A stretch of 60,957 nucleotides of DNA, counting the filler, from Dugesia japonica (lineage: Eukaryota), in the NCBI GenBank assembly GCA_001938525.1. It is 6 parts of 6 records of this genome, joined end to end, with 100 filler letters (N's around TTAATTAATTAA, not from the genome) between each part and the next. Parts side by side here need not be neighbours in the genome. Positions count along the whole stretch, not along the records: positions 23,057 to 33,094 come from MQRL01597800.1; 5 more parts are not named here. One strand, given 5' to 3'. Below the pieces are notes generated by a model, which was not told the DNA's origin, did not search any database, and was given only the letters and a program-made list of their open reading frames with translations. Both the position numbers and the translations under genes were made by a program. This document shows, piece by piece, positions 8,321 through 55,110 of the stretch (within the stretch, counting starts at the first letter, position 1; each line of letters opens with the position of its first letter).

Positions 8321-8419
8321 TTAACTAACTTTGATATCCGTTTTTGATATCCGTGCCACTTCACGAAATATTGTTTATTTTCTTTTGTTCCTTTTGATTT
8401 TCTAATTTTTTCTATTCTA

Positions 8420-9325: not shown

Positions 9326-9389
9326 ACAACAATTAGAAGAAAATTTCAAATCAAAGTTGAGAATGATTGTAAACCGCCTATTGTTTATT

Positions 9390-9700
9390 TAAAATGGGTT
9401 AAGCCTAATGCTGCTAATGCAATTGGCAGTATTGCTGCAATAAAGTCAGAACTCATTTCATTAATTTCCTATTCTTTGTATTTACAAGCGTTAATAACGT
9501 TCTTACATGTTTTTTCAATACTTTTTTTTAGTTTTTTTCAAAACTACATTACTGCGAACAATATTTATGATAATATCGAGTAAATCGTCGGAAATGCTTG
9601 CAAAATTTTCATTCTGAATAATTTTGGAGATTTTATCAATGCTGCAAAAAACGGAATACTTCGTTGTAACTTCATATTTGTTAAAATATAAATACATACC
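9390..9700 (-). pseudogene. Small Polinton basic/hydrophobic protein (adenovirus pX-like tail)
   Basis: IIINIVRSNVVLKK followed by the hydrophobic tail DFIAAILPIALAALG, directly upstream of the integrase. Confidence 0.45.
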
Positions 9701-10099
9701 ATTTCATTGTTCATAATGAGATCCATTTTCAATAATTTTTTCGACGTGCTCAACTGCTTCTTCTTTTCAATATATTTGACAGTATGCTTTCTTAAAATAT
9801 GCTTTTTTGAACGGCTACTGCTTTTGATTTTTTAACGTTTTGTTCGTTATATTTTTGGAATATTTTTTACTTGATAAACTACAATTTTTTTAAAATTTGA
9901 CAATTTTGAAAAGAATTCGTCTAAGTTCGTCTGGACATTGTTGTGTAAAGTCAAGAAAAAGATAGCCATGCGGGTTTATTGTTGCATCTTGAAATGAATC
10001 AATAACAAATTGTCTATTATTAGGATAAGCTTGTCTTGCAAGAAAATCAAAAACTGTTTTATCTCTCGGATTTTTGTGTGCTCTGACTCATCCTTGATA

Positions 10100-10339
10100 T
10101 AGGCAATCAATTTCAACCTTTCATTCCAATTTTTATCAAATCCATTTATAATTTTCATTTTAATGTTGAGATATTCTGATTGTGAAAAAATCTAGCTTTT
10201 CATCTGCAGCTCTGTGTCATTATAATTTGTTCAATTTTGATTTAAATAAATGTGATTTCTATAATTTACATACAAATAAGTTCATTCCGCTACCGCTAGG
10301 ACCAACAATTTGATAAACAGCATTATTTCTCAACTCCAT
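10100..10339 (-). pseudogene. Polinton A32-like packaging ATPase, N-terminal fragment
   Basis: ATG at 10339 gives MELRNNAVYQIVGPSGSGMN, a Walker A with K changed to M, followed by stops. Confidence 0.6.
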
Positions 10340-10784
10340 TTTTTGTATAAATATATAATTTAATACATATTTTATAATGCTAATGCTCTTTGTTTAAATA
10401 AATCAATTAATTTAATTTCTAAAAATTAGTAGGTAGATTGGTCACCATTAAAATGTCATGATTAAAATGTTTACAGTCGAAATGGTATTAATTGTCATTT
10501 ATGATTTTTTGGAAATTTAATATCTCGGTAATTTTGTGCTTTCAAAANGAGCGCTGTCTAAGCGAAATGCCACACAAGGCGGCAATTTTTCATAACGCAA
10601 ATACAATAAATTTATAAACAAAATTAATGTTTCTCGAACAATTTTGTAGATAAAAGCATGTAATATGTGCTTTAAAATTTCCTCGAATGTGATTTTACGC
10701 AATTTATCTTTTTAAAATAATTTAGCTGAATTTTCCGTCTTACGAAGACAAATAATCTCGTAAATTTTATTTTGGTTTTTAAAA

Positions 10785-13700
10785 ATGTCAAGCGCGAATA
10801 TTCATTTTAGAAGAACGGAAGGCCAGAGATAATACTTTGGCACTTTAGCACTTTAACTTAAATAAAAAACTATATATTAAGAACCAACAACGCAGGACTT
10901 TATTTTAGTCGCCAATATTCTAATAAAAAGAGAAAGAGGAAAAAGTGGTCCTTATAAAGTTTTTGATGTTTCTAAGTTCAAGAAAAGGGTCTTCTTTAAA
11001 GTTTATGAAAAATTTACAAGATCAATATTTGTATAAATTTTATTTTAGATTCTAAAAAATTTCGATACCAAATTTTCATTTAGAGAAATGGATGGCCATT
11101 GATAACACTTTACCTTTTGAAGAACATCAGTTTAGAGACTATTTATTTAGTGAATTAATAGTAAATGATTTTAATCGCGTTACCCATCTTAGAGCGCATT
11201 ATTATCGCCGATATAGAGGCGTTGTTCATACATATCCGATTTCAACTTATTTAATGACGGAACAAATCCTTAAAAATTGTTTAGAATTCATATTAGATGA
11301 CATTACAAATAATAATCCTAATTATACAATAAAGATAACAGCATTTCGAACTATGATTAGACTAAATCCAAATAGTTATTTCACACAGGAACAAGAGAAA
11401 CTATAGTAAATGAATTCTTTGAAAAATTAAATCACATTTTACAATCAGCAGAAGAAATAGATATTGATGCGATAAAATTTGAATTTCTATTTATACCTTT
11501 ACCAAACGGTACAGGAAGAAATTACCGTATTCATGGCGCTTCTAAATCAACTAATCAAATATTACAAAACGTTGCTGCGAATTCAGTTAATATGATTAAT
11601 AATACGGATACTATATGTTTATCTAGAGCAATAATAGTTGCTTTAACTTATAATAACTTTACTAATGAAAATTATTTTGATTTTGATGCAAGAGATAATA
11701 GAAGAAAATATTTTAGACGCGGTGGCCCAATTCAAACAGAATATGCTAATAATTTTCATATACAGGCAAGAGTTCCTATAAATCAAAGTGGTAGCAATAT
11801 TAATGATTTAAAAGTAATTCGAATTATTTTTAAATATAAGAATAATAGTTTATACTTGTAATAATAATGAATCAATCATATATAGAGGAAATGATTTATT
11901 NGAGAAACAAACATTTATATATCTAGAGAATAATCATTTCAACGCTATTGCTAAAATATTCGCATTCTTGCGGTCAAATAAATATTGTCATCATTGCTTA
12001 ATAGGTTTCCAAAATCAACATACATGCCCCATGGTATTATTGTTGTCAAGAAAGAAAATTGTAAAATGCGATGATTGTGGTAAAGAATATTCGAAACAAT
12101 ATTCACACAGTTGTGGCAAAAAGAATTGCCCTATATGTCATGAATTTTATACACCATCTTTCAATAATCACAAGTTTTATATTAAAAATAATGGCGGCAA
12201 ATTTAAAATTAGCAGTTCTTATATTTTCTTTGATTTTGAAGGAACGCAAGTAAATAGAGGATATCATGAGATAAACTATGCAATTGCATATGATTCATTA
12301 AGAAAAGTATTTTATAAATTTCAAATATAGTTACTATATTTAAAATAATTAGTGAAACATCTAACGAGGAAACGAAAGAAGAAATGAATTGGAAATTAGA
12401 CGAGCTAAATGTTAATAATATAATGGATATATGCGTAGCGATAAACCAAATAATTATAAACGATTCGAAATCTTTAATAGATACTTTCTGCAAATTCTTT
12501 ATTAGCTTGAATTTTAAAGATTATACCTTTATAGCGCATTATTCTAAAGGGTACTACAATCAACCAATATTAGATTGGCTAATTAAAAATAACTTACCTT
12601 TAGAAGAAATAAGTAGAGGAAATAAAATTATACATATTCGGGTAAAACATTTTAATATTAGATTTATTGGCTCCTTATGTTTTACTTTATGCCCTTTAAA
12701 AGCATTTCCCGAGACATTCGGTTTTAAAGGAATAAAAGGAGAATTCCCTCATTTAGCCAATACAACAGGAAATCAGAATTATATCGGCGTTTTTCCCGCT
12801 TTGTATTATTATGTTTATGATATTATGAGTAATACGATAAAGGAAAAAGAATCCGATCAATTAACTATAAAACAAAAATTAAAAGCTTGGCATGATGAGA
12901 GAATAAATAACAATGAAATATTTAATTTTCAAAATAAATTATTTTATTATTGCCTAACAGATGTAATGATATTAACTAAAGGATGTTTACTATACAAAGA
13001 TGTTTTTATGAATATAAAGATGCCTAATGGTAATTTATTGAATCTAGACCCATTTTAATATATTACTACCAAAACGTTTATGTCTACAACAAATAATAAT
13101 ACAATAGGGATTCCAAGACTATCTGACTTTGATGGCGTTTTTCTTCCAAATCTTTACATTGGCTCGAATACTTAAGCTATATCAATAAAATCAATATACA
13201 ACACGCCAAAAGAGGAGGAAAAAAGGCAATAAGTAACTATAAATTAGATGAATATTATTATGACTCGATAAAACAAATTCATTACGTTTATGAATTTAAT
13301 GGATGTTACTTTCATGGATGTTTAAAATGTTATTCGAAAGAAGAAATATGTAAGAAAGAAAGTAAATCAATGGAATATTTAAATAATAGAACTCAAACTA
13401 AAAAGAATAATATTATTGAATATTTTAAGGATAGACGAGAAAAAGTCGAATATATTACTTTGTGGGAATGTGAATATCAAAGATATTTATTTGAGAATCC
13501 AAATTTTTAAAACTTTAAACCTGAAGCATCTTTAAATAAATTAAAACCTAAAGATGCTTTTTATGGAGGAAGAACTGAACCATTTAAATTATATTATAAA
13601 GCAGCTAATAATCAAAAGATTAGATATGTTGATGTAGTTTCATTATACCCGACTGTTAATAAATATGACGAATATCCGATAGATCATCCCCAAATATTAT

Positions 13701-14238
13701 TTAATGCAATTCCTGAAGAATATATAAACCTAAATAATCTATTAGTTAGAATTAATGAAAATGACCAACCATATTTTGGCTAAATTAAATGCAAAATGCA
13801 GCCCCCTAGAAATTTATATTTGCCTGTATTACCTTTTAAACCAGAAACAATAAATGCTCATAAATTATTATTCGGATTGCGTAATACCTGCATGAATAAA
13901 ATAAATAGCAAATGCCCACATCATAAATTAAATACAACGTGCACATTTAAAGCGCAAGCTTTACATAATGATAATACTTGTGGACAATATATGAAAAATA
14001 AAGATGAATATGCATATAAGACAAAACAATGCACATTATTTTTTAATTTTAGAAACGCGCCATGTTTTCATAATGATGAAGAAAGATGTATAACAGGAAC
14101 TTGGTCAACAATTGAAGTAAATAAAGCTTTAGACAAAGGATACAAATTATTACATATATATGAATTATATCATTTCTCTAAAACAATAAAGACTATGTAA
14201 ATGTATTTATGAAATATAAATCAGAAGCAGAATGTAAA
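10785..14238 (+). pseudogene. Protein-primed DNA polymerase B with OTU-like N-terminal domain and VSR-like nuclease insertion
   Basis: INNTDTICLSRAI...NNHF (OTU-like Cys/His), YIFFDFEG (ExoI), IAHYSKGY, KGEFPH, YCLTDV, YEFNGCYFHGC...LWECE (VSR-like), FYGGRTE, YVDVVSLYP, GTWSTIEV. Start approximate. Confidence 0.92.
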
Positions 14239-14338
14239 NNNNNNNNNNNNNNNNNNNNNNNNNNNNNNNNNNNNNNNNNNNNTTAATTAATTAANNNNNN
14301 NNNNNNNNNNNNNNNNNNNNNNNNNNNNNNNNNNNNNN
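14239..14338. other. Artificial scaffold spacer N44-TTAATTAATTAA-N44
   Basis: Exactly 100 bp, with stops in all six frames. Identical copies at four other positions. Confidence 0.95.
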
Positions 14339-15760
14339 TTGAGATATTAGTTTGTTATTTTTCAAGTCAAATTGTATTTGCACAATAGGAATTTATACAT
14401 TCATATATATTTCCTGCAAATATTACTAAGTCCCTAAGTAATTAAATTAAAATTTATAATTAAAATATAAACCAATTTTATTAACATTTATTAAATTTCC
14501 ATTAATTTCCTTAATTTATAAATTTTACAGAATTTAGCAAGGATATAGAAAGCCAGTAAATAGAGTAAACAAGTGGATAGAGTAATCAAACAGGCACAGA
14601 AAATCGATCTGATACAGTAAAACCCGCGAGTTTCAGTAAATCAATAGAAAGAGTAAGCCTTTGTGACACAGTAAGCCTGTATATAAAGTCAACGGATACA
14701 ATAAAACCCATGTGTTTCAATGAAGCTTATAATACACAGTAAAGCCAATGTATTTCAATAAAGTCAATGGTTACAGTAAACCAATGGANNNNNNNNNNNN
14801 NNNNNNNNNNNNNNNNNNNNNNNNNNNNNNNNNNNNNNGATAACATTTTGAATTAAAATTGTAACCATCTATGTGTAAATTGAATCAAGCTATGAGTAAA
14901 TTGTAACCACTTTTGCGTAAATTACGATTAACTATGTACAAATTGTGACCCTCTGTGTAAATTGTCATCATCTATTGTACATTGAGATATTAGTTTGTTA
15001 TTTTTCAAGTCAAATTGTATTTGCACAATAGGAATTTATACATTCATATATATTTACTGCAAATATTACTAAGTCCCTAAGTAATTAAATTAAAATGTAT
15101 AATTAAAATATAGACCAATTTTATTAACATTTATTAAATTTCCATTAATTTTCTTAATTTATAAATTTTACAGAGTTAAGCAAGGATATAGAAAGCCAGT
15201 AAATAGAGTAAACAAGTGGATAGAGTAAGCAAACAGGCACAGAAAATCGATCTGATACAGTAAAACCCGCTAGTTTCAGTAAATCAATAGAAAGAGTAAG
15301 CCTATGTGACACAGTAAGCCCATATATAAAGTCAACGGATACAATAAAACCCATGTATTTCAATGAAGCTTATAATACACAGTAAAGCCAATGTATTTCA
15401 ATAAAGTCAATGGTTACAGTAAACCAATGGATAGAGTAAACCAATGTGACACAGTAAAGCCCATGTGTTTCAATAATGCTAATGTGACAAAGTAAAAGTC
15501 TTGTATTTCAGTAAACCAGTGTGACACTGTAAAGCCCACATTCTACAGTAAAGCCAATGAACATAGTAAACCAATGTGTTTCAATAAAACCATTGTAACA
15601 CAGTAAAGTTCACGTGCTACGGAAAAACCAATGAGATATAGTAAACCAACTTGAAATAGTAAGCCTATGTGATACAGTAAACAAAAAGGTTTAGTAAGCA
15701 AATGAATACAGTAAGTTAGTAGATATAGTAAAGTAGGGGACATTGTAAACCAATGAACAC
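14339..15760. repeat. Degenerate minisatellite array plus a ~450-bp duplication
   Basis: Many ACAGTAAA(G)CC(A/C)ATG units at 14550-14788 and 15190-15760. ~21-bp TGTGTAAATTGTAACC-like units at 14855-14980. 14339-14788 recurs almost identically at 14982-15432. Confidence 0.8.
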
Positions 15761-22956: not shown

Positions 22957-23056
22957 NNNNNNNNNNNNNNNNNNNNNNNNNNNNNNNNNNNNNNNNNNNN
23001 TTAATTAATTAANNNNNNNNNNNNNNNNNNNNNNNNNNNNNNNNNNNNNNNNNNNN
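22957..23056. other. Artificial scaffold spacer
   Basis: N44-TTAATTAATTAA-N44. Confidence 0.95.
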
Positions 23057-23308
23057 TTTTAACTGATGATGAATTATCTATAAGTAAAAATATAGTTAAT
23101 GAAGTTCATGAATTAATATCTGGACATAAACAAGAAAAAAATAAATCTCATTAAGAAAGTTAAAAAATGTTAGTAGAAAATCAAAGTTAAGTTATTAATG
23201 AAATGAAAATGAAATTAGGAATGTAATGACACATAAATTTGTATGTAAAATATTGGGTATGTAATTTTTGACACACATGCGTGCCTGATTAAATTATTTC
23301 TTTATAAA

Positions 23309-23989
23309 ATGGAAGATGTTATATGTAAAATTGAACAAGTTATACCTAAAATTAAAAATGGAGAAAAGTTAAAAAAAGAATTAAAAAATTTAATAATATC
23401 ACTTGATAATTTAATTAGTTCTGAATCTGAAAGTGAACAAATATGCGCTACGCTGGACTCCGTACAATTTAATGAAGAAGAATATATAGAAATGAAACAT
23501 GATCAAGATGGAACTGATAATGAAATAGAATCAATTGTATCAGAATCTAAATCTGTACAATCTGAACAATCTGAATCTGAATCTGAATCTGAACAAACTG
23601 AAACTAATCAAAATCAAATTGTTAGATTTAACATTCAAGATACTTCATCAGATAATTTAGTGATTATTAATAACCCTGATAATTTAACATTATTAAAAAG
23701 AAATACATTTAAAGAATTACCAGATTTAGAAGAATTTGATCCACCTAAATTTAATATAAAAATTAATCCAAAATCAACACGAACTATTCAGATGGAAAAT
23801 GGACAAATTAAAGATGTAGAAAATAAACAAATAGTTATTGGACAAATGATATTACCATTACCAATAGGTAAAAATGAAAAAGATACAATAAGAAGAACAA
23901 TAAAAGATGGAAAAAAAATAAGATCAAAATATTATCCAACAGATAATGAAGATGATGTTAAAATGGCAATAAATAAACCAACTATGTAA
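23309..23989 (+). CDS. Polinton hypothetical protein with acidic/Ser-rich centre, probably 3' truncated
   Basis: 226-aa ORF with an ATG start. It ends where the homology of the convergent ATPase breaks off. Confidence 0.6.
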   Translation: MEDVICKIEQVIPKIKNGEKLKKELKNLIISLDNLISSESESEQICATLDSVQFNEEEYIEMKHDQDGTDNEIESIVSESKSVQSEQSESESESEQTETNQNQIVRFNIQDTSSDNLVIINNPDNLTLLKRNTFKELPDLEEFDPPKFNIKINPKSTRTIQMENGQIKDVENKQIVIGQMILPLPIGKNEKDTIRRTIKDGKKIRSKYYPTDNEDDVKMAINKPTM

Positions 23990-24370
23990 TGTAACAATTA
24001 TACTTCTTGATTTTTTAGTAACTAAATTTTTATCTAGATAATAATTAATAACTTTATATGGTGAAGTATAAGTCTTAGGAATTATATTTTGTTTTTCAAA
24101 CATTAAAGTTATCTCTTCTTTAGTTAATCCATGTTCAAATCCTAAGTATAATAATTGAATTTCAAATTGTGAAATTGTTGTAGAGTAAATTATTAAATTG
24201 TCATAATCTAAAAATTNNNNNNNNAATAACATTTTCATTAATAATACATTTTTACCACAACCTGATGATCCAATCATTAAAAGTCTAAAATTATTAGGTA
24301 GTACTTTATTATTAAAATGTGTAATGTTATTATTCCAGATATACATGCTATTTTCTATATGTAACATATG
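23990..24370 (-). pseudogene. A32-like packaging ATPase, N-terminal half
   Basis: PNNFRLLMIGSSGCGKN (Walker A), highly similar to 53695-54080. The Walker B half is deleted. Confidence 0.85.
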
Positions 24371-24703
24371 GTAAATTATCATCATCATAATTATCATTTG
24401 AATAGTCTACATCTTTTGGCAAATTTATTAAAATAGGATAACCATCATTATCAAGTTCATATTTACATACTATTTATATTTTATATTTATTTATTATTTT
24501 ATTTATGCTAATTGGTAAATTATTATCTGATCTTGTTTTTAGTATACCAATTAATTTTCCTAAATTATTATAACATGTTAAATCAAAATGTTTAGTTTTA
24601 TTTATTACATAATCCCAATAATAAATTTTTTCTAAAATTTGTTTAGATGTTAAATCATCATTAATTATATCTTGTGCTATATCCATTTTATTAAGATTTA
24701 ATT

Positions 24704-24974
24704 TTAATCATACACTTTATATAAGGAGTTAATGTATTGTTCATTTTCTTTAACCATATTTTCATAAGAGGCATATGATAAATTTGGAATATAATTTTCT
24801 AATGATAACAAATTATTCTTTTCATCTATTAATCCTTCTAATTTCCATGTAAGAGAATTAATTTCTTCTTTTTTACCTTGATATTCACATTCTCCTATTT
24901 TTTGTTCTAATATTTCTATTTCTGTTTGAATTTCTAATATTTCTATTTCTATTTGATTTTTAAAATGAGACATT
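24704..24974 (-). CDS. Polinton hypothetical coiled-coil protein
   Basis: MSHFKNQIEIEILEIQTEIEILEQK..., directly downstream of the integrase (3' part of ORF 24704..25069). Confidence 0.45.
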
Positions 24975-25812
24975 TTATAAAGATGTTTTTTGTAACTCAT
25001 TACTATAAAATCTTCCCAATATTTTGTTGCCGTTAAGATTTGATATGCGAAATGTAATTGGTTGTTCATGATAAATTTGAGTAATTATATAAATTCTTTT
25101 AGACCATTTAAATGTATAACCTTTAGGAAATGTTTTACCAATTTTAGTTATTCTAACTCTATCACCAACATTAAATCTTAATTTCTCATTATAATCTTTA
25201 GGCATTACTATTTTAACTTTTTCTGGATTATTTGTTGCTTGTTGAGGTGTAATGTTAATTGTTGAATGTTGTGTGTTATTGTAATCATCAACAATTTGTT
25301 CTAATAACTTAAGTGTGATATCTTGATTTCCAACGGCAGTAAAATNNNNNNNNNNNNNNNNNNNNNNNNNNNNNNNNNNNNNNNNNNNNNNNNNNNNNNN
25401 NNNNNNNNNNNNNNNNNNNNNNNNNNNNNNNNNNNNNNNNNNNNNNNNNNNNNNNNNNNNNNNNNNNNNNNNNNNNNNNNNNNNNNNNNNNNNNNNNNNN
25501 NNNNNNNNNNNNNNNNNNNNNNNNNNNNNNNNNNNNNNNNNNNNNNNNNNNNNNNNNNNNNNNNNNNNNNNNNNNNNNNNNNNNNNNNNNNNNNNNNNNN
25601 NNNNNNNNNNNNNNNNNNNNNNNNNNNNNNNNNAATATTAAATCTGCAGACCAAATATCATCTTTTTCATGTACAACTATTTTTCTAAAATGTTTAGGTT
25701 TTCTATATTTTTTATGTAATTCTTTACTTAATATTTCTTTGTTGGTGAGTTCATCATCAGATTCATCTTTATTAATTGTAGTTTCTTTAAATAGATCTTT
25801 TTTTGTTCCCCC
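24975..25812 (-). pseudogene. Polinton integrase (core lies in the N gap)
   Basis: SKELHKKYRKPKHFRKIVV...DIWSADL, YNNTQHSTINITP, FNVGDRVRI...KGYTFKWS...GRFYSNEL. Confidence 0.88.
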
Positions 25813-26282
25813 TTAACCAATAACAATTTTACCTTTCATTGCTAATTTTACTAATACTCTTTGAAATTTTTCTGTTAATGTTGGATTTTCAATATTATTA
25901 AGATCATGTATTAAATTAACATCAGCAATATGACAATCGCGTATATTTTCAGAATTATACGCGATGTCATGTTTTAATGCAGATTCATCAACTCTATTAA
26001 TTGGTTCTTCAACAGGTTTAGGAATATTATTTTCATCTAATCTAATATCTAATCTTGTACCAGGTCCGGTGTAATTATGTTTAAATAAATGTCTTTCACC
26101 TGGATATTTTTCTGTTGTAATTGGTTTTAATAATGTTGATATAAATTTTGAATTTTGTAAGTCACCTCCAGATTTTTTCATTTTTTGTGCTACGCGATTA
26201 ATACATAAATCTAAATGTCTTGATTTATTTTTTTTAATATAATTTTACCACAATTGTCACATATAAAATTTTTAGAGGACAT
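25813..26282 (-). CDS. Parvovirus VP1u-like phospholipase A2 with an upstream C2HC zinc finger (1-nt frameshift)
   Basis: HNYTGPGT (Ca-binding loop), PINRVDESALKHDIAY (catalytic HD) and AD. The upstream frame reads MSSKNFICDNCGKIILK/KNKSRHLDLC. Confidence 0.85.
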
Positions 26283-26338
26283 TTTTAAGAGGTTACATTT
26301 ATCATTTAACATTTTACATTTTACATTTTACATTTATT

Positions 26339-27641
26339 TTATAAATCTTGACCTTTTACATTTTCAATCATAATAACTTTACTGTTAGCAAGTTTCATCT
26401 CAACATGTTTCTCTTCTAATATACACCAATGTATGATGGCTTTAAAATCATTATCTTTTGATATTTTAAGTGTAACACCTACATTGTTAACATTCATTTT
26501 ATTATCATGAGCAGATATATCAAAACAAAACATTGGATATAAATTACCAAAATCNNNNNNNNNNNNNNNNNNNNNNNNNNNNNNNNNNNNNNNNNNNNNN
26601 NNNNNNNNNNNNNNNNNNNNNNNNNNNNNNTGCCATTTCATTATTTTTCATATTAAATTTTAATTCATTAGCTGGATAATTAGTATTATTTAATTGTAAT
26701 TGTATACCTTTAATATAATTAGATTTTGATGTATCAACTGCGGGTGCGACAGCTTTAGTAATAATATCAACTTTCTGTATAAAGAGATTATCATTAGTTT
26801 CTAATGAAGAATTTGGAGATTTAAAACAAATAAAAATATATCTTGGTTGATAAGCTAAACTACCAATTTTTATTGAATAAAATGTTCCTATTTCCAAATT
26901 AGTTTTACCACATATCCTGTTTAAATATGAAACTTTAATTGATTTTTCCATTGATATTCTTTCCAACATTATTAATTCAGTTTTGGGTAATAATCTAAAT
27001 TCTGGAATATGAAATTCTAATGTTTCTAATATTAAATTAGCTTTTGAATCTTTTTCTCCATAAAATAATAATTTATTTTCAATTTCTCTGTTACATCAGA
27101 ATTCTATACTTGTATTATATAAAAGTCTATTATAATTTTGCATGAAACCACATAAATTTTTTAATGGAAAGTAACCTTCAAATTTATTAATTGTATAAAG
27201 TTTAGTTCTAGTTAAATAACCTTTATTTTTTACATCGCCATCATCAGTATCTGGTATCCAATCTGATAATTGGCCATTTTCCTTTTTATATGTGGCGGAT
27301 GTTAATATTAAATTTAACATTGTACTTATAACACCTGGATCGTTAATTGTTTCAATTTCAGATGAACCTAGAAATAATCTTAATGAATTAAATAAAATTG
27401 GGAAGAAATTATTTTCTAATGTTATTTTATCTTTTGTTGCATCTTTAATATTAATTTTAAAATATAAAAGTGAATTGCAAATGTCAAGTGGATTATTAGA
27501 TTGTAAAGATTGAAATACAATGTCGCCACTCGCATTTAATTTGCTTAATGTTCCTGCTGGTGGAGAAATTACCAATGTGTCATTTTTAATTGCAACATGT
27601 GAAAATTGAATGTTATTATTTAAATCTAACATTGTAATCAT
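26339..27641 (-). pseudogene. Polinton double-jelly-roll major capsid protein, frameshifted
   Basis: About 430 codons across three ORFs: LENNFFPILFNSLRLFLGSSEIETINDPGVISTML, PLKNLCGF, PRYIFICF, LNNTNYP, LYPMFCFDIS. Confidence 0.78.
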
Positions 27642-28098
27642 TTTATAGATGAAAAATTTAATGGTGTGTTTTTTTTATTATGTTACTATTATCTTACTAT
27701 TATTTTATGTTATGTTATCTTATGTTATNNNNNNNNNNNNNNNNNNNNNNNNNNATAAGATTTTTTCATATCCATTATTAAATTTTCATAATTAATAGGA
27801 ATTTTTTTATTTTCAACTCTATCCATAGGAATTTTTTGAATAACAGTGACTTTTTTATTTTGTTGGGGGGTCAGCTTAGCGCCTTCAAATCTATCAATTG
27901 CAGAAATAAAACTACCATTTGGATTTCTTTGTGTATTTCTAGATGGATTCCATGTTCTAACATTATATTCTATGTTCCATTTTGTTTAAATATTTTTTAA
28001 CAGTTTTCTCATTAATATTATAAATTTTACAAAAGTTATGTATAGAGTTATCTTTAAAATTATATTCATTTAACATTTTATAAAAAACTGTATCCATT

Positions 28099-28722
28099 TT
28101 ATTTAGTTTTTAATTTAGCATGTGCTCTATCTACTCCGGTGATTTCTTTTTGGGCTGGTATACGAGTAAATACATTAAATGAAAGCTTTTCTGTTTTTAA
28201 ATTTTCAACTAAAGTTTTATAACGTTTTGCAGTTAAATTTAATTTTTTATTTTTATCATCTGAATGAATTTTAATCTGAATATCATCAATTATTTTTGGT
28301 TTTAATACTTGATTAAATTGTGATAAAACCTTATTATGTTCATCTCTCTCTTTTTGCCATGCAATGCGCATTTCATTAATAGCTTTTAAATATGCAATTT
28401 TCTCATTATTTATTGATTCAATTAATAAATAACGACTTTCACTTTCTACACATTTTGAAATAATAAAAGTTATTATCACTTTAAATAAACTTTTATTATC
28501 TTCTTCTAAATTTAAATCATCTAATGTGGCATATATTTCATTAAGAATATCTAAATGATTTTTAGCAGTATCATGTGAAAGTTCATTATCTAAATATTCT
28601 TTTATTTCATTTAAATTTGACTCATCAAAAGTTTCAAATTTCTTTATTGAATTTACTAGTGTGCGTAAATTTAACTCACATAAAATTTTTTTCTCTGAAA
28701 CAACTTTTTTCTGATCACTCAT
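28099..28722 (-). CDS. Polinton hypothetical protein next to the terminus
   Basis: Intact 207-aa ORF with ATG start. No recognised motif. Confidence 0.6.
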   Translation of the reverse strand: MSDQKKVVSEKKILCELNLRTLVNSIKKFETFDESNLNEIKEYLDNELSHDTAKNHLDILNEIYATLDDLNLEEDNKSLFKVIITFIISKCVESESRYLLIESINNEKIAYLKAINEMRIAWQKERDEHNKVLSQFNQVLKPKIIDDIQIKIHSDDKNKKLNLTAKRYKTLVENLKTEKLSFNVFTRIPAQKEITGVDRAHAKLKTK

Positions 28723-28751
28723 TTTCTATAGAATTAATTTGAAACATATTA

Positions 28752-29075
28752 TTAAGTCACTTAGTGTATTTAAAATATTATAAAGTTACTTTGTGTATTT
28801 TATAAGTCACTTTGTGTATTTATTAAGTCACTTTGTGTATTTAAAAAGTCACTTCGTGTATTTAACATTTATTAAGTCACTTTGTGTATTTAACATTTTT
28901 TTNNNNNNNNNNNNNNNNNNNNNNNNNNNNNNNNNNNNNNNNNNNNNNNNNNTTTAAAAAGTCACTTCGTGTATTTAACATTTATTAAGTCACTTTGTGT
29001 ATTTAACATTTTTTTATTTAACATTTTTACATTTTTTATTTAACATTTTTCATTTAACTTTTAACATTTAACATA
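28752..29075. repeat. Polinton subterminal tandem repeats
   Basis: AAGTCACTT(T/C)GTGTATTT units, followed by TAACATTTT units. Confidence 0.75.
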
Positions 29076-30506
29076 TTAATTACGGTAGTATACCGGTTCT
29101 GGGTAAAAAGTAAATACCCTATTACTTATATATATATATATATCGTAATTAAATAATTAAATACTAACTAATATTTTATTTCAATGCGTCTTGACTCATT
29201 TAATTATGCTAAAATGTCACATGTAGATTTCAAAGTCTTCTTTACATTACATGTTACAATTATGTTTGTCATAGATAAATTATAATCTATTGGAAAACTA
29301 GGTTTCATGAATGCAATAAAGTTTAACATTTATTCTACTTCTGTGGTAGAAGATCTATTTTTTTCTGTTTATTAGCTTTCATCTAGATCTATATTAATTT
29401 AAATAATTTATTATCCTATACATTAACTCAAAAATAAATTCATGTAAATATATTGTTACATTGAGGCTAAATAATAATCTACTTATTAATTTCTTTCACT
29501 GTCTTGTCTTAGTCTTTTTAAGATATTTAATTTGATTTAGTTTAATTTAACTTAAGGTTTAATTTACTTGACTTTGATGGTTGTATTTATTTGTTAAGAA
29601 ATTTTTGTTGATCCTTGTAGACTCTCCTGAAACAGTTTTGGGACAGCTGAGGTGAATATTGTATTAAGATTTTGTCTTTCGAGTATATAGGTGGGAAATT
29701 AATTTTGTACTATTATCCACTGATTATTATGAAAATGTAATCGTAAATTAATTAAATCGTCTTACACCAAAATATATAAATATAATTAAAATGGATAACA
29801 ACCAAACCAAATTAGCAAAAAGAATTTATTACTTGTATTAGCAAGAAGAACGCAATCCTCATCAAATAATTATTTAAGACAAAGTTTCTATAAATTGAAA
29901 AACTGAGTTAGAAAAGTTTTAATATTCAAACAAATATACGCAATAATTATTTTAATTATTTTCTTGAAATATTTTAAATATCAAAAACTTTATAAATATT
30001 TTAATTGCGCATATTAATTTGAAATTAAGCAATTCGAATATCATTCTCACAACTTGTATCTTAAAAAGTCACGGATTGAAGTAAAAGATAAATTTAGTTG
30101 TCATAATTTAGAACAGTCAATGTAGTGATTCGTAGGAGAAGTTCTATAAAGTTCATAATACAATGCACAAAACTGGAGTTTAGAATTTTTGGAAATGGTT
30201 TGGTTTGGTTAGCCTTTTAATTCTAACTTTTTTTGATAATTTATTTTTGGTTTAAGCCAATTAATTTTTTGGTTTCTAATATTTCGTATTTTCTTTTATA
30301 ATTTTAAATATTAATTTCTGAGATTTTTATTTTGTATTTATCGCTCTTTTGCATATTAAAAATGTAATATCTAATAATTATGATACATACTTACACAAGC
30401 ATGTATTTACATAATGTACAAACATTATTCTTTAAAAGAAATTACAATTTTGATACTTGAAAATTATAAAATGAGCACCTTTATAATCAGAAAAACATTA
30501 CAGTAA

Positions 30507-30575
30507 ATTTCATTAGAATAAAGAAAAAGCTTCGATCAAATTTTGATCGAAGCTTTTTCTTTATTTTAATGAAAT
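30507..30575. repeat. 69-bp near-perfect palindrome derived from the hammerhead-repeat tail
   Basis: 34-nt arms ATTTCATTAGAATAAAGAAAAAGCTTCGATCAAA and its complement, with one mismatch and a 1-nt spacer. Confidence 0.9.
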
Positions 30576-31387
30576 CTCAAATGCAATCAATGGTCAAGTC
30601 CAACAATTATTCTCACAATAATTGTAATTATATTACAGTAAATATTCTATATATATTGAAAGTGTAAAATTATCTAAGACTGCTGTTTAAAGCAAACAAC
30701 TTGCTAAATTTAAATCCATTTTGGATATTTCTGATTTTAATATTTAAAATACAATAAAAGATTATTCAAACTATACTTTAACTGATGATGAATTTAATCT
30801 CTTAAAACTTGGTCCATCACATTGTATTAAATATAAATTAGATGGATTTTATTTTAAGGCTCAATTTGAATCGGTATATTCTAAATTTCTCCTTTCATAG
30901 AGTTCAAATAAACTGGATTTGCTGAATAATAAGTTTAATATTCAATCATCTGTTACTAAATTTATTAACAAGAATAAACCTTTTAATTTTAAGGATGAAA
31001 AAGTATTAAAGCAATCAAAATAGAAAGATTTGAGCATTTGAAAATTTAATAAAGTTAATGGACTAATTATCATGAACAAGAATGATTATAACAGTAAAAT
31101 GATGATGATATTGCAAACAAGTAAATGTGAACGATTAAACTTAAGAAAGAATAGCGTACCACTACCAATCAATATGAAAATCGATTATTAAAAATTCTAA
31201 ATAAATTTTAAAAAAAGAGATCATATAAATAGTTTATGTGACTATATGTTATGCTATGGAAGTCAGTCTGCTAAATTTTATGGTCTACCAAAAATACACA
31301 AACCTGATATCCCTGTAAGACCGGTTTTATCAATGATAAACACAGCGCAATACAAAGTTGCTAAAGTACTTAACAAAATGCTGAAAC

Positions 31388-31747
31388 CATAGTTGTACAA
31401 CATGAGGCCCGTAAACATTTTTTTGGCAGGCGAGATTCATCACACTTTTTCAAAATGTTTATTTCGATATATATTTTCAATAATATAATATTTTTTATAT
31501 TTAAATTTTAGTGTTATATATTTTTTTACAATGTGCNNNNNNNNNNNNNNNNNNNNNNNNNNNNNNNNNNNNNNNNNNNNNNNNNNNNNNNNNNNNNNNN
31601 NNNNNNNNNNNNNNNNNNNNNNNNNNNNNNNNNNNNNNNNNNNNNNNNNNNNNNNNNNNNNNNNNNNNNNNNNNNNNNNNNNNNNNNNNNNNNNNNNNNN
31701 NNNNNNNNNNNNNNNNNNNNNNNNNNNNNNNNNNNNNNNNNNNNNNN
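31388..31747 (+). mobile_element. Short hAT-like insertion inside the Penelope RT
   Basis: Starts CATAGTTGTACAACATGAGGCCCG. Flanked by 8-bp GCTGAAAC/GCTTAAAC, and removing it restores NKMLKPLIC. Right end hidden in Ns. Confidence 0.65.
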
Positions 31748-32843
31748 GCTTAAACCATTAATATGCAATGATAAATAATGTAAAGATACTTTTGGATTTG
31801 TAAATTGCTTTAAAAAACTACTTACCTCAAATAAGGAAATTATGGTTTATTTTAATAAAGTTAGTCTGTTCACAAACATTCTTATAAATTAGATCATCGA
31901 TACCTGTGTTGATCTCTGGCGAATCAATACACGAATTTATACTATAAATTTGATGAAATAGCTATCAGGAAATTGTTGGCATTTTTAATAATGATTGGTT
32001 CTCTCAGAAAGATCGTGTTGCAATGGGTTCTGAGTTGGTACGAACATTAGCATCCTTATATTCGTCTAAAATTGAATCACGAATTACTAACTTTTCTGGT
32101 AATCACCCGATAGAATACAAAAGATACGTATATGATATCTTCCTTATTTTTAAAGATCAAGAGAATATACTACCTGTCTCGATTATATGAACAGTCTTCA
32201 TCAAAATATAACATTTACTATAGAAGTTGAAAAAAACGATAAACCATCATTCTTAGATATTCTTGTTTGTTAACATGGTCTTAGCTATAATACTGCAATA
32301 TATAAAAACCAACAGACACAAGACTATACACCACTTCTAAAGATTTTTGTAATGATCGATATAAAAATGGGTTAATAAAAGGTTTAGTTCATAGAGTGCG
32401 GGGTATGTTATCAAGTTTTGAGATTGCTGATGATGTCTTAGCAGATTAGATAGTAGTCTTTGAGCTGATGAATATTACCATAAACGAATTATAATAACAT
32501 ACGTAGTATTTTAAACAGACTGTGCTCAACATTAAATAATAACCAAGAAGTTATTAACAATAATCAAGAAAAATAACTATAAAACTACAATTCTCGAAAG
32601 GAGCTAAATCATTAAAATGTTCTCTCATGTAATATTTTGATGATAATAAAGCTAAAATAAGATTCGATGAGTTTACAGTTTTGAACAGCGGTTTTGATAA
32701 TTATTTTGAAAGTATTGTTTGTCATGCTTTAAGAATTTGGTGAAACTCAGATTTAAATTTATTTTAATCTTTTTTTATTGGATTGAGTACGTAACAGGTT
32801 TTATTAGTTAGTAGATAAACACTTTTCTTCTTATTTTACAACA

Positions 32844-32884
32844 GTAACCGATGATGGGCATAGTTTTTTTCGAAACATGTATTA
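32844..32884 (+). ncRNA. Degenerate minimal hammerhead ribozyme at the Penelope 3' end
   Basis: CCGATGA...GAAACATGTA: palindromic ACAUGU stem III and GUA cleavage triplet. Core U-to-C change and eroded stem II. Confidence 0.6.
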
Positions 32885-32928
32885 AAAATAAAAATTTCAA
32901 AAAATATATAGATTAATTTTATATTATA

Positions 32929-33094
32929 CAGGGTGTTCCAATTTAAGGTTACATTTTAAATTTATTATTTCTGTTTTGTTTTATTAAATCAATAATTGTT
33001 GAATAAGCAATAGTAATTCATGTGGTTTTTAAAAATTAATCGTTATACCATTGAACAAAGAGTATTTATGGTAAAAAATTATTTTAAATACGGC
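32929..33094 (+). mobile_element. Mariner/Tc1-superfamily 5' end
   Basis: TA|CAGGGTGTTCC terminus followed by RYTIEQRVFMVKNYFKYG (DUF4817-like HTH). Cut by the spacer. Confidence 0.7.
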
Positions 33095-33194
33095 NNNNNN
33101 NNNNNNNNNNNNNNNNNNNNNNNNNNNNNNNNNNNNNNTTAATTAATTAANNNNNNNNNNNNNNNNNNNNNNNNNNNNNNNNNNNNNNNNNNNN
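33095..33194. other. Artificial scaffold spacer
   Basis: N44-TTAATTAATTAA-N44. Confidence 0.95.
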
Positions 33195-35795: not shown

Positions 35796-37100
35796 ATGGC
35801 GACCACGTTATCCACGAAAGATATTTTACAAATTCTTCCTCAGCGAAGAATATTTATCATAAATGATAATGTTGAAGAATATTTGAAGGAGCAATATTTT
35901 TCAATGATCCAGCTCGACAACAACCAACGAAATATTGTTATCAGAGCATATTTAGACAAAGAGTCAAGATNNNNNNNNNNNNNNNNNNNNNNNNAAGATT
36001 ATGAAAAAAGAATGCGAAATGCATTTTTAAAAAGCCCAGATTTAGCCGAGGATCTAATCAAATTGCTAAATTACAAAAGAAAAAACGATTCGGTGGATGT
36101 ATGCATTTTAAAAATTGAAAAAATGTTGAAAACGTTATGCGACATAAATTAACCAGCACTAAATTGATCGCATTTTTCTGAAGCATTGTCTTGACAATGA
36201 AACACAGAAGGAAGAAATTCAAAGATATGAAATGACTGAAGATTTANNNNNNNNNNNNNNNNNNNNNNNNNNNNNNNNNNNNNNNNNNNNNNNNNNAAAA
36301 TATTTAAAGAAGATGAACAAATTGAAACTGAAAACGTACAGAAAGGTCCAACTCCATGCAAATATATCAATAATATTTTGCATCGCATTGATAAAATCAA
36401 TGCACAAATCAATGCGATAGAAAACAATCATATNCTGGAGTTTTAAAATATCAACAAAATGCAAATTATAATCAGCCCTGGAAATACAGCAATGATCAAA
36501 GACAAATTCCAGAAATCGAACAATTAAAGAAATATTCATTAAAGAAATTCAACATCCAATGCGTGAACAAACAAGACAAATATATCCAGAAAGTAGAGAA
36601 AAAAGAAAATATGTCCAATTTAATAAAAATGAAGAATCTAGGCAATTTTATGGATGCCATGAATTTAGACACTTACGCCGTGATTGCCAAAATATTCGAT
36701 GTTCTGTTTGTAATCGAAGAGGACATCTGAGTTATAAATGTTACCATCGAGAAGACACCGAAAAAAGAATGAATATTAGAAACCAATTCAAAGATTACAA
36801 CAAAGGCTCCAGTCAACGTGGAAATGATAGGAGCCATAAATTACATTTAAGATATGATATTAATGATATGTGGACTAGTATGTTTGAGTGTGATGATGAT
36901 TGTTTGAATAATTTTAATAATAGTATTGGTGTGATTAAAAATGACTCAATAATTGAATGTATATTTAAAAATATGAATGATGAAAATAGATTGACTGATA
37001 TATGCATGCTTGAATTTTTGAATGTTGTTAATTATTGTAACATTGATGGTAGACCTTTTAATAATATTAAACTAAATGGAAGTTATTTCAATGCATTATG
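35796..37100 (+). pseudogene. Gypsy gag with two CCHC zinc knuckles
   Basis: (C>F)YGCHEFRHLRRDC and CSVCNRRGHLSYKC. Stops and frameshifts present. Confidence 0.8.
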
Positions 37101-38913
37101 ATACTGGGACGAAAAAAAAGCGTAATGAGTAAAACTTTAGCTAAGGAAATTAAAAATATTAAATTTAATAACAAAAATGTTAACGACAAGCAAGTTTTAT
37201 GCGCTAATGGCAGTGCCCTAAATATTAAAGATAAGGTAGATATAAAAATTGAATTTAATGGCAAAAAGTGTACTAACAAAATCTTTATTGCTGAAGAGAT
37301 TTATCCCCTTATAATTATGGGAATAGATACTTTAAATTCTCTACAAATCAAATTAATAGAAATAGATAATATAAATCCCATCGTTTTAAATTTACAAGCT
37401 AAGTTTTCAACAAATAATATAAGTATGAATAGTAGTGAGCAATTAATTAAAAAATTAAAATTAAATTACGATAATAGTATTCATGATATTATTGTCAGAT
37501 ATATTGAAATTTTTATGAGCAATAAATGGAATATTGGTAAAACAGAAATTTTAAAACATAAAATGGAAACCGATTGCTAACCGATTTTAATGAAAGCTAG
37601 AAGGTAGTCGATGCACTACGTAGAAAAAATAGTAGAAATTATAAATAATTTAGAAGAAAATAGTATTATAAAATAATGTGAATCCCCATGGAACTCTCCG
37701 ATTGTATGCGTTAAAAAAAGAATCAAATGAAATAAGAATGTGCTTAGATTTCAGATTTTTAAATAAATACACTGTTAGACCTGCTTTTCTAATTCCAAAT
37801 ATTGAGGAGATGCTTGATTCGTTATATGGGGCGCAATATACTTTTCATCCATAGACTTAGAAATGCATACTATCAGGTGGAGTTGGAAGAAGATAGTAAG
37901 TTAAAGACGGCATTTTTGACTAAGATGGGACTATATTGTTTTAACCAAATGCCATTTGGTATTGCTGCTGCTCCATCGACATTCCAAAAATTGATGTCAA
38001 TTATTATTAGAGACGTGATGTGGAAAGAGGCACTGGTTTATCTCGATGATATATTAGTATTTTCAAAAAATCTAAATGAACATAAAGAAAGGATTGAAAA
38101 AATATTTTTANGAATTAAGAAATCGGGGCTTAAAATAAATCTAGATAAATGCAATTTTTTAGTATCCGAATTAAAATTCTTATGTCATATTATAAATAAG
38201 GAAGGGAGTAAAACTGATAATTCAGGGATAGAAGCGATAAACAATTTTGGAAAACCTCGATGCATGAAACATCTTCGCAGCTTTTTAGGTCTAACAAATT
38301 TTTATCGCAAATTTATAAAAGTTTATTCCAAAATTGTCACACCATTGGAAAAATTAATTGAGAATAAAGAGGTAAAAATTAGTTTGGACTGAAAAATGTA
38401 AAGAAGCGTTTAAAAGTCTAAAAGAAAGTCTCACAAAAACACCAATAAATAGATATCAGAATTTTCAGAAAACATTTATTTTAGATACAGATGCAAGTTT
38501 TGATTCAATAGACGCAGTTTTATCACAACATGATGAATATGGAAAAAAAGTTTAAAATGTAACGCAGCAGAAATTGTTTTTGGCAAAAAGATAAACAAAG
38601 AAACGCTTATGCATAAAATCTTAACTTGCGAAAATTCATTAGAATATAATAAACTGTTGAATGATGTTCGGTTTGAAAGAAAGGAAGTTATTCATAATGC
38701 TAATATGATTACTGATTACAATAATGATAAAAGAATTCATAAACATTTCAAAATTGGTGATAATGTGCTGGTAAAACATGACATAAGAGATAAACAGGAT
38801 AATAGATATGGAAGACCTTATAAAATTATAAATGAAATACACAATAATAGCTTTAAATTGAGAAATTCTGAAGGTAAAAGATAGTTTAAAATATAGAATG
38901 GCTAAAGCTATTT
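37040..38913 (+). pseudogene. Gypsy pol (protease, RT, partial RNase H; integrase core deleted)
   Basis: AL.DTG, SPWNSP, AYYQV, MPFG, YLDD, LRSFLGLTNFY, FILDTDAS, then a jump near 38550 to the integrase tail (RYGRPYKI). Confidence 0.9.
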
Positions 38914-40602: not shown

Positions 40603-40787
40603 ATTCATTTAAAATAAAAGCTTCCATTAAAATTTGTATTTTTTAGATTTTAAAAATAATTCAATNTTTCGACTTTGTCTTCTTCGACTTTCAATTCCTG
40701 AAGAAGACAAAGTCAAAATATTGAATTATTTTCAAAATCCAAAAAAATACAAATTTTGATCGAAGCTTTTATTTTAAATGAATTCTG
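40603..40787. ncRNA. Inverted pair of minimal hammerhead ribozyme repeats
   Basis: Plus 40691-40727: TCAATTC-CTGAAGA-A-GAC(AAA)GTC-aAAA-TATT-GAATT. Minus 40658-40685: GAAGA-A-GAC(AAA)GTC-GAAA-nATT-GAATT. Arms about 85 bp. A further tail copy lies at 40438-40498. Confidence 0.75.
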
Positions 40788-42156: not shown

Positions 42157-42256
42157 NNNNNNNNNNNNNNNNNNNNNNNNNNNNNNNNNNNNNNNNNNNN
42201 TTAATTAATTAANNNNNNNNNNNNNNNNNNNNNNNNNNNNNNNNNNNNNNNNNNNN
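42157..42256. other. Artificial scaffold spacer
   Basis: N44-TTAATTAATTAA-N44. Confidence 0.95.
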
Positions 42257-51571: not shown

Positions 51572-51572
51572 A

Positions 51573-52452
51573 ATATTAATTGGAAAAGGAATATTATCAA
51601 AACCTAAAAAAGCACGAAATTTCATCAGAAGAACTTCATAAAGAATATAGAAGACCAAAACATTTCTTAAAAGTAATAGTAGATGGTAAAGATAATATTT
51701 GGTCAGCAGATTTAATTTTCCACAAAAAATTTATATGTTTAAGTGTAATTGATTTATATACAAGATTTGCATTCGTAGAAATTGTTAAAGATAAAAAAGG
51801 ATTATCAATAAGAAATGCATTTGAAAGAATTCTAGAAAAAAGTTTTAGGATGCCAGGTAAATTATGGATAGTTAATGGTAGAGAATTTTATAATAAAACA
51901 TTTCAATCTTTTTGTGAAGATAATAATATTAAATTATATTCTAATGAAAATCAAGGTAAAGCAGTTGTGGTTGAAAGATTTAATAGAATATTTAAAAATA
52001 AACTCTTTAAACATTTTACTGCCGTTGGGAATCAAAATATTAATGAAGCTTTAATACAAGAAATTGTAGATGATTACTTTGATACTACTTACTATGATAC
52101 TACTTTGAAAGTTAATTATTCATAAATTATGATTGCAAATATTAATTACAGAGGTAAAGTTGATCAAGAANNNNNNNNNNNNNNNNNNNNNNNNNNNNNN
52201 NNNNNNNNNNNNNNNNNNNNTAAAAAAGAAATACCAATTACTTTTCCTGAGAAACAAAAATTTAAAATTGGAGATAGAGTTAGAATCTTTAAGTTTAAAT
52301 ATAAATTTGAAAAAGGTTTTACAGCTAAATAGACAGAAGAAATATTTATAGTTATAAGAATTTATGATACGAAACCAATAACATATGGAATATCAGATTT
52401 AAATGATGAAAGAATTCTTGGAAGATTTTATTCAAATAAGTTAAAAATCTAA
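51573..52452 (+). pseudogene. Polinton integrase
   Basis: EELHK, IWSADL, LSVIDLYTRFAF, GREFYN, KAVVVERFNR, FKIGDRVRI, GRFY. Confidence 0.92.
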
Positions 52453-55108: not shown

Positions 55109-55110
55109 TT

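What the first reader, a model, noticed from the sequence alone, without database searches (positions are those of the whole stretch)
24975..26282. Polinton zinc finger / phospholipase A2 / integrase fusion with protease-site-like linkers
Seen: the PLA2 ORF stop (25813-25815) is in frame with the integrase and no Met intervenes (GKIVIG*GGTKKDLFKETTINKDESDDELTNKEILSKELHK). In the related copy D, 51573-51590 reads ILIGKG, so the stop aligns with an AAA codon, and a single extra A in an A-run separates it from the integrase frame. Upstream, a 1-nt shift in an A-run joins a CDNC...H...C finger to the PLA2 through KKSGGD. Known: parvoviral VP1u PLA2 aids endosomal escape, PLA2 genes occur in adintoviruses, and adenovirus-type proteases cut (M/I/L)XGG/X and (M/I/L)XGX/G; LIGK/G fits. 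Inference: one virion-packaged polyprotein is cut to deliver both a membrane-breaching enzyme and the integrase. Similar fusions may already be in databases; I could not check.
Basis: partly seen in the sequence, partly recalled or inferred. Interest (0 to 1): 0.85.

Follow-up and report, generated by a model that had tools for sequence, protein, structure and literature searches.

The report
Polinton phospholipase–integrase fusion protein
A decayed virus-like Polinton element carries a broken copy of a gene that, in over a hundred intact relatives, joins a membrane-cutting phospholipase to the integrase in one protein, suggesting these DNA viruses pack their integrase into the particle much as retroviruses do.

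Summary
The fusion is real in the family; this copy is broken. A parvovirus-type PLA2 ORF (26244-25816, PF08398) ends at a stop in frame with a Met-less integrase start. The nearest relative of that PLA2 (P0001, 80% identical) is one 463-aa protein: C2H2 finger, GG, PLA2, GxG, rve integrase. Of 386 PLA2 relatives held, 122 are full fusions with both catalytic sets largely intact. Glycine motifs flank the PLA2: 61 of 66 diverse fusions have GG or GxG at the PLA2-integrase joint, against 3 of 2388 windows in the integrase. Against: 51 relatives end at the motif and 24 keep GG/GxG there, so it may be partly structural; no protease gene was found in the window; copy D is weak evidence. Best reading: a virion-core precursor that loads integrase with a lipase and is probably cut on maturation (inferred, 0.58). 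Ten paper searches found no description of the fusion, though databases auto-annotate it. New variant of a known kind; interest 0.62.

The parts
26214..26282 (-). First ATG and N-terminal half of a C2H2-like zinc finger (F-I-C-x2-C); frame broken in the A-run 26235-26228
   Evidence: same finger at same place in 17 of 163 fused relatives; motif rarity; profile score itself weak
26164..26178 (-). Joint 1: KKSGG followed by D; candidate GG|X processing site before the PLA2
   Evidence: GG or GxG in 45 of 61 diverse fusions and 36 of 41 stand-alone forms; pLDDT < 50 at the matching residues 33-37 of P0001
25816..26163 (-). Parvovirus-type phospholipase A2 domain with YxGPG Ca loop, D-x5-HD and second Asp intact
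   Evidence: PF08398 E 2.8e-8 above cut-off; model pLDDT 84; best fold matches parvoviral VP1 PLA2 and rice PLA2 2wg7 Z 6.7, rmsd 3.8, 86 aligned
25810..25830 (-). Joint 2: K-hydrophobic-x-hydrophobic-G-x-G motif with the in-frame stop (25815-25813) inside it
   Evidence: K and G in 66-67 of 67 fusions, G at +1 or +2 in 61 of 66; last PLA2 helix ends just before the G
25634..25812 (-). Variable linker and integrase start (ELHK...WSADL), no Met, no canonical Polinton integrase N-terminal motif
25346..25633 (.). 288-N gap hiding the integrase catalytic core
24975..25345 (-). Integrase C-terminal part, ends without a chromodomain
   Evidence: tblastn 48% to P0001 336-463, E 2e-29; full-length relative folds like foamy-virus and MELD-virus integrases
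26339..27674 (-). Upstream double-jelly-roll major capsid protein gene, broken by an in-frame stop at 27096-27098 and an N-run
   Evidence: PF21738 E 3e-4 and 7e-4, below cut-off; tblastn with L001 capsid E 7e-18
23989..24406 (-). Downstream A32-type packaging ATPase, truncated
   Evidence: tblastn E 3e-16 with L001 ATPase; 80% DNA identity to the copy D ATPase region, whose C-terminal ORF hits Pox_A32
51572..52450 (+). Copy D: joint-2 motif and integrase of a related element on another contig; PLA2 absent, foreign sequence upstream; own stops and a frame break in the linker
   Evidence: (rve E 5.8e-8)

Best explanation
The locus is a decayed copy of a Polinton (Maverick/adintovirus) gene that encodes one precursor: [zinc finger or other small basic module]-GG-PLA2-GxG-integrase. 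SHOWN: this architecture is a single open frame in 122 distinct relatives, both enzymes keep their catalytic residues, the integrase has lost the usual N-terminal motif and mostly has no start codon of its own. INFERRED: the PLA2 part is a virion core protein, so the fusion loads the integrase into the particle with the genome; the element's clan-CE cysteine protease cuts at GG|X and GX|G during maturation, freeing a lipase that breaches the endosome on entry and an integrase that can insert the incoming genome before any viral gene is expressed. The stop and frame breaks here are decay.
For: Nearest PLA2 is the fused P0001 (80.6%). 122 full and 41 partial fusions among 386; 67 representatives under 70% identity, median 45%. 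HD 118, Ca loop 109, integrase D/D/E motifs 120/112/119 of 122. Linker 5-75 aa yet open; 49 of 67 lack Met in it; 0 of 122 carry the P-x-S-F-x-G start seen in the window's other integrase at 9345-9157. Joint 2: 50 GxG, 7 GG, 4 GGG, 5 neither of 66; loss of the third G goes with gain of the second (Fisher p 2.4e-4, relatedness not corrected; 3 changes on the tree). The same joint also links PLA2 to a pX-like tail through tandem GG sites (P0200, P0273) or to DUF5679 (P0352). L002 places an integrase 89% identical to fused P0066 beside a protease-like ORF and a pX-like protein; core-like proteins of L001/L002 hold 23 GG/GxG in 824 aa against 4 in 1568 aa of capsid and enzymes. Model: independent domains (pLDDT 87, pTM 0.62), both joints in low-confidence loops. 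Precedent: mavirus protease cuts GG|X and GY|G, and mavirus virions hold integrase and a lipase-like protein split around GK|G (PMC6048507 passages). Neighbouring capsid and ATPase genes are also broken.
Against: 51 of 386 relatives end within 8 residues of the domain and 24 of them keep GG or GxG with almost nothing to cut off, and the G sits at the end of a helix: a structural cap explains the first G. Three of the four closest PLA2s end at the motif. Strict adenovirus consensus met by 8 of 66. No protease gene found in the window or in the 13.6 kb of L001; the L002 protease call is below cut-off (PF00770 E 0.037). Fusion counts are inflated by searching with a fused query and by length; among the 121 rows new in the length-free PLA2 search only 20 were fused. 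No expression, particle or cleavage data exist here.
Confidence: 0.58

Rival explanations
1. The fusion is real and packaged but not cut at joint 2: PLA2 is a permanent N-terminal domain that replaced the integrase's own N-terminal domain, serving as packaging or membrane anchor, and the conserved glycines are a helix cap.
For: GG/GxG kept in 24 of 51 forms that end there; helix ends at the G; 5 of 66 fusions have neither GG nor GxG; linker can be only 5 residues; canonical N-terminal motif absent in 122 of 122; no protease found in window or L001.
Against: A cap needs one G, not the either-or second G; the same motif recurs at joint 1 in a disordered loop and in tandem in pX-like tails and core proteins; mavirus protease cuts such motifs.
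Confidence: 0.26
2. The stop or frame break at joint 2 is a regulated recoding site, as in gag-pol: mostly free PLA2, occasionally PLA2-integrase.
For: The window's stop falls where stand-alone relatives end; L001 and copy D both change frame in an A-run in this linker; the fused label needs 19 changes on the PLA2 tree, 9 forced by well-supported branches.
Against: 122 relatives are plainly in frame; the breaks differ in kind and place among the three loci whose DNA I could read; all three sit in elements or contigs where homopolymer indels and decay are expected, and the window's capsid and ATPase genes are broken too.
Confidence: 0.09
3. In this element PLA2 and integrase are separate genes with a natural stop; the integrase begins from a spliced leader.
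For: Close stand-alone PLA2s exist (P0150-P0152, 71-73%); an AG with T-rich upstream lies right after the stop (first exon base 25811).
Against: The nearest relative is fused; the finger upstream is typical of fused forms (17 fused against 7 others, 4 of those incomplete at the C-terminus); spacing and GxG match the fusions; other AGs lack pyrimidine tracts.
Confidence: 0.07

Closest known systems
Adintovirus PLA2X (Starrett et al. 2021, PMC8502044) / Maverick 'CAP' (PMC5803895)
   Same: Parvovirus-VP1-type PLA2 domain with intact catalytic and Ca-binding residues, in a Polinton with capsid, ATPase and rve integrase; proposed entry role.
   Different: PLA2X carries a pX-like C-terminal domain and is a separate gene from the integrase; here the integrase takes that place, and pX-like protein is a separate gene in L001/L002.
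Mavirus virophage MV02 integrase, MV13 lipase-like protein and MVP protease (PMC6048507)
   Same: rve integrase and a lipolytic protein both in the virion; clan-CE protease cutting GG|X and GX|G.
   Different: Separate genes, unrelated alpha/beta-hydrolase fold; shown by experiment, whereas here it is inferred.
Retroviral and LTR-retrotransposon Gag-Pol
   Same: Works like it (recalled knowledge): integrase made as the tail of a structural precursor and released by the viral protease.
   Different: dsDNA jelly-roll virus; partner is an entry enzyme, not Gag; integrase lacks an HHCC domain in the relatives aligned; protease is a separate gene.
Canonical Polinton c-integrase
   Same: rve core with D-D-E and SH3-like C-terminal part.
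   Different: No P-x-S-F-x-G N-terminal motif (0 of 122); chromodomain absent here and in most near relatives, present in others such as P0122 and P0141.

Membership tests
Polinton/Maverick/adintovirus (Polintoviricetes) | Double-jelly-roll major capsid protein | tested here: met
   tblastn E 7e-18 to L001 capsid (PF21738 1.8e-54); direct Pfam below cut-off
Polinton/Maverick/adintovirus (Polintoviricetes) | A32-type packaging ATPase | tested here: met
   24406-23989, tblastn E 3e-16
Polinton/Maverick/adintovirus (Polintoviricetes) | rve integrase | tested here: met
   flanks match P0001; copy D PF00665 E 5.8e-8; core itself hidden by N
Polinton/Maverick/adintovirus (Polintoviricetes) | Protein-primed PolB | tested here: inconclusive
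   none on this contig, which ends at 23057; PF03175 hits lie on another contig
Polinton/Maverick/adintovirus (Polintoviricetes) | Adenain-like cysteine protease and penton | tested here: inconclusive
   not found in the window; element incomplete; protease-like ORF beside a sister integrase in L002
Polinton/Maverick/adintovirus (Polintoviricetes) | Terminal inverted repeats and 6-bp target duplication | not tested
   only one end of the element can lie on the contig
Parvovirus-type PLA2 (PF08398) | YxGxG Ca loop, HD dyad, second Asp, helical fold | tested here: met
Parvovirus-type PLA2 (PF08398) | Ca-dependent phospholipase activity | not testable with these tools
   needs an assay
PLA2X | pX-like domain C-terminal to the PLA2 | tested here: not met
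   integrase follows the PLA2; no Adeno_PX hit in these ORFs
Adenovirus-protease substrates, strict (M/I/L)xGG|X or (M/I/L)xGX|G (consensus recalled; examples MRGG and IVGL|G seen in PMC4246237) | M/I/L at P4 | tested here: not met
   8 of 66 at joint 2; 4 of 45 at joint 1
Mavirus-type clan-CE substrates, GG|X or GX|G | Gly at P2 and Gly at P1 or P1' | tested here: met
   61 of 66 at joint 2, 45 of 61 at joint 1, background 3 of 2388; rule from PMC6048507
Mavirus-type clan-CE substrates, GG|X or GX|G | Actual cleavage in particles | not testable with these tools
   needs protease assay or virion proteomics
Canonical adintovirus integrase (C-terminal chromodomain, PMC11071296) | C-terminal chromodomain | tested here: not met
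   ORF ends at 24975 without PF00385; P0001 likewise

The most novel reading that the evidence does not exclude
A widespread, undescribed lineage of Polinton viruses uses a Gag-Pol-like strategy: a protease-processed core polyprotein in which a parvovirus-type PLA2, bounded by GG/GxG sites, is a swappable packaging-and-entry cassette that carries the integrase (or pX, or a zinc module) into the virion, so that membrane breach and integration machinery arrive in a fixed 1:1 ratio and integration is the first step of infection.
Probability: 0.45. Interest if true: 0.8.

Novelty: new variant of a known kind. Interest (0 to 1): 0.62.

Why it matters
Whether animal Polintons move as particles, and how an incoming genome reaches and integrates into a new host's chromosome, is an open question; papers read here list PLA2 and integrase as separate genes and only propose that the lipase is packaged (PMC4642659, PMC8502044). 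A conserved covalent link between a presumed virion enzyme and the integrase is genetic evidence that the integrase travels in the particle, and it hands over a small soluble natural substrate with two predicted cut sites for defining the Polinton protease's specificity. It also corrects annotation: Lottia gene models such as P0021, P0172, P0203 and P0215 run from PLA2 into an integrase start.

Tried and rejected
Copy D as proof of fusion: rejected, it has no PLA2 and only six codons of the joint. Strict adenovirus consensus: rejected (8 of 66). Zinc-finger profile search: not significant. Protease search in the window by Pfam, tblastn with the L002 ORF and motif scans: nothing; the L002 ORF had no meaningful PDB sequence match. 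Amphipathic helix after joint 1, as in adenovirus protein VI (recalled): only modest support, median 77th percentile of hydrophobic moment, not used. PDB sequence search with the PLA2: only weak parvovirus capsid matches, E about 0.4. VIA-align top match Z 6.7 is within the range the tool calls common. Phage collection: no match. L003 is an unrelated integrase fragment without PLA2. The careful tree did not finish; a quick tree was used; the PLA2 tree has 114 columns and many open forks. Rows set aside: 29 of 149 without both motifs, P0103, 4 of 390 without a PLA2 profile hit, 84 incomplete or short rows and 88 near-duplicates before the PLA2 tree (302 then 214 rows). Names and accessions of cluster members could not be looked up; DNA around the metagenomic fusions, including whether short forms are natural stops, contig ends or decay, stayed unchecked. 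No complex prediction was run.

Full report
Setting. The window is AT-rich eukaryotic DNA made of contigs joined by N44-TTAATTAATTAA-N44 spacers at 14239, 22957, 33095, 42157 and 51293. The finding lies on the contig 23057-33094, in a minus-strand run of capsid gene (27674-26339), the locus, two small ORFs and a packaging ATPase (24406-23989). That is a Polinton morphogenesis-plus-integrase block; polymerase, penton and protease are not on this contig. The host was not determined; the named relatives are from the limpet Lottia gigantea and the coral Oculina patagonica.

Observation. All quoted features are in the sequence. The PLA2 ORF (26244-25816) scores PF08398 at E 2.8e-8. Its stop (25815-25813) is followed in frame by a Met-free stretch that reaches the first catalytic Asp of the integrase before a 288-N gap. 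The C-terminal integrase part resumes at 25343 and ends at 24975. An upstream ATG (26282) opens F-I-C-x2-C, and the frame changes in the A-run 26235-26228. Copy D shows the joint motif and an integrase but no PLA2; foreign sequence ending in CTATCTACT abuts it at 51571, so it cannot show a fusion.

The fusion exists. Searching longer proteins with the PLA2 alone gave 59 hits among 253 candidates; 35 carry both PF08398 and PF00665, the best (P0001, 463 aa) at 79% identity. P0001 as query returned 1122 hits, 120 listed. With the short-protein search (130 hits, 120 listed) and the length-free search (582 hits, 150 listed) I held 390 proteins, 386 with a PLA2 profile hit: 122 full fusions, 41 partial fusions, 51 ending within 8 residues of the domain, 3 flagged with pX-like tails, 102 other tails, 67 incomplete. 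These counts are biased towards fusions; among the 121 rows new only 20 were fused. The ESM Atlas lists three clusters (184, 111, 72 members) with both domains, taxa mostly Preplasmiviricota, at lead-level scores 0.82-0.85. In 122 full fusions the PLA2 HD motif is present in 118, the Ca loop in 109 and the three integrase motifs in 120, 112 and 119. The linker varies from 5 to 75 residues yet stays open, and 49 of 67 diverse representatives have no Met in it. None of 122 has the P-x-S-F-x-G motif that begins the window's other, ordinary Polinton integrase: the PLA2 stands where that N-terminal part normally is. AlphaFold of P0001 gives mean pLDDT 87 but pTM 0.62, with residues 33-37 disordered and the last PLA2 helix ending just before the GxG; the model matches MELD-virus, mavirus and foamy-virus integrases, and the window's PLA2 model matches parvoviral VP1 PLA2 domains.

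This copy. On a PLA2 tree the window groups (support 100) with P0001 and three short proteins that end at the motif; P0001 is nearest, 80.6% against 71-73%. The finger upstream is found in 17 of 163 fused relatives including P0001. Capsid and ATPase genes are also broken. A decayed fusion is the simplest reading (about 0.85-0.9), a natural stop the alternative.

The joints. In 67 representatives under 70% identity the end of the PLA2 reads K-hydrophobic-x-hydrophobic-G with K in 67 and G in 66 at exact spacing; of those 66, 50 continue x-G, 7 G-x, 4 G-G and 5 neither. Loss of the distal Gly goes with a proximal Gly (7 of 12 against 4 of 54; Fisher p 2.4e-4, uncorrected for kinship; the GG form needs 3 changes on a quick tree, one origin not ruled out). 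Before the PLA2, 45 of 61 have GG or GxG. Such motifs occur in 3 of 2388 windows of the integrase part. M, I or L at P4 is found in only 8 of 66, so the strict adenovirus rule fails; Lys is commonest. The mavirus protease, however, cuts GG|X and GY|G, and mavirus particles contain the integrase and a lipase-like protein in two pieces around GK|G (PMC6048507, passages). Two Polinton contigs caught in genome bins add context: L001 has capsid, penton-position gene, ATPase, pX-like and other core-like genes next to a DUF5679-PLA2-integrase gene whose frame breaks in a linker A-run; L002 has an integrase 89% identical to fused P0066 next to a protease-like ORF (PF00770 E 0.037, below cut-off; H-W, D-S-Y-G and Q-C-G motifs seen by eye, family motifs recalled) and a pX-like protein (PF05829 E 0.0019). 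Their core-like proteins hold 23 GG/GxG in 824 aa, mostly without M/I/L at P4, against 4 in 1568 aa of capsid and enzymes. The same PLA2 joint leads in other relatives to a pX-like tail through tandem GG sites (P0200, P0273) or to a DUF5679 module (P0352).

Against cleavage. The first Gly caps a helix. No protease was found in the window or in L001. The fused state needs 19 changes on the PLA2 tree, meaning repeated fusion and fission or many truncated records.

Mechanism. Shown: one gene, two intact enzymes, integrase dependent on the upstream start, glycine motifs at both joints. Inferred: packaging as a core protein (about 0.75), cleavage at joint 2 by the element's protease (about 0.6-0.65), lipase action at entry and immediate integration. 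Joint confidence 0.58; permanent-domain rival 0.26; recoding 0.09; separate genes 0.07.

Literature. Ten full-text searches found no description of a PLA2-integrase fusion. Seen: PMC8502044 passages, section 3.2 and a term search of its one stored supplement file, which was cut (no 'fused', 'fusion' or 'polyprotein' in the main text); bioRxiv 10.64898/2026.06.19.733378 passages and section 5 (phospholipase common in group 2 Polintons, no fusion named; supplements not seen); passages only of PMC11296320, PMC3671162, PMC5803895, PMC11071296, PMC12220804, PMC11131425, PMC4642659, PMC4246237, PMC6048507 and bioRxiv 10.64898/2026.07.28.741253. Figures, genome maps, Repbase and subscription papers were not seen and could show the fusion. 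Automatic names in databases already combine the two domains.

Verdict. Observation confirmed; interpretation partly supported. A new variant of a known kind: known parts in a widespread arrangement that I could not find described, with a testable bearing on whether Polintons deliver their integrase in particles. Interest 0.62.

Noticed in passing
window 14239-14338, 22957-23056, 33095-33194, 42157-42256, 51293-51392: Artificial N44-TTAATTAATTAA-N44 spacers: the window is six unplaced contigs, so neighbours across them are not linked.
   Followed up: yes
window 8317-14200: A second, unrelated Polinton: ordinary integrase with N-terminal P-x-S-F-x-G motif and chromo-like end (9345-8317, -), ATPase-like fragments (10393-9890, -) and broken pPolB (11056-14200, +; PF03175).
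   Followed up: partly
window 51393-51571: Foreign sequence ending GGGGGGG...CTACTATCTATCTACT abuts copy D exactly at the end of the PLA2 position; resembles a transposon terminus (recalled), no second copy in the window.
   Followed up: partly
window 51572-59605: Element D also holds an ATPase (53727-54471), a membrane-protein gene like L002's, a pX-like gene (57716-57378) and PolB-like fragments behind a C2H2 array (59605-58271); all decayed.
   Followed up: partly
proteins P0021, P0033, P0172, P0203, P0215 (Lottia gigantea): Host gene models named 'PLA2-like' are Polinton PLA2s that run into integrase sequence or are spliced to unrelated exons.
   Followed up: partly
L001, L002, L003: Polinton or related integrase contigs sit inside prokaryotic genome bins, probably binning contamination; L001 also holds an RT/GIY-YIG ORF (962-2095).
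   Followed up: partly
window 6946-7947; 1703-2236 and 5959-6492; 36496-38884: Intron-split protein kinase gene; LTR-type integrase zinc-binding fragment; non-LTR reverse transcriptase.
   Followed up: no
window 30507-30575, 40603-40783, 14339-15681: A 69-bp and a 181-bp palindrome, and a 450-bp 97% duplication with a 19/37-bp minisatellite.
   Followed up: no
proteins P0157, P0352, P0141: DUF5679 (C4 zinc module) occurs before or after the PLA2, always across a GG, and alternates with the C2H2 finger as N-terminal module; perhaps a DNA-binding or packaging signal.
   Followed up: partly
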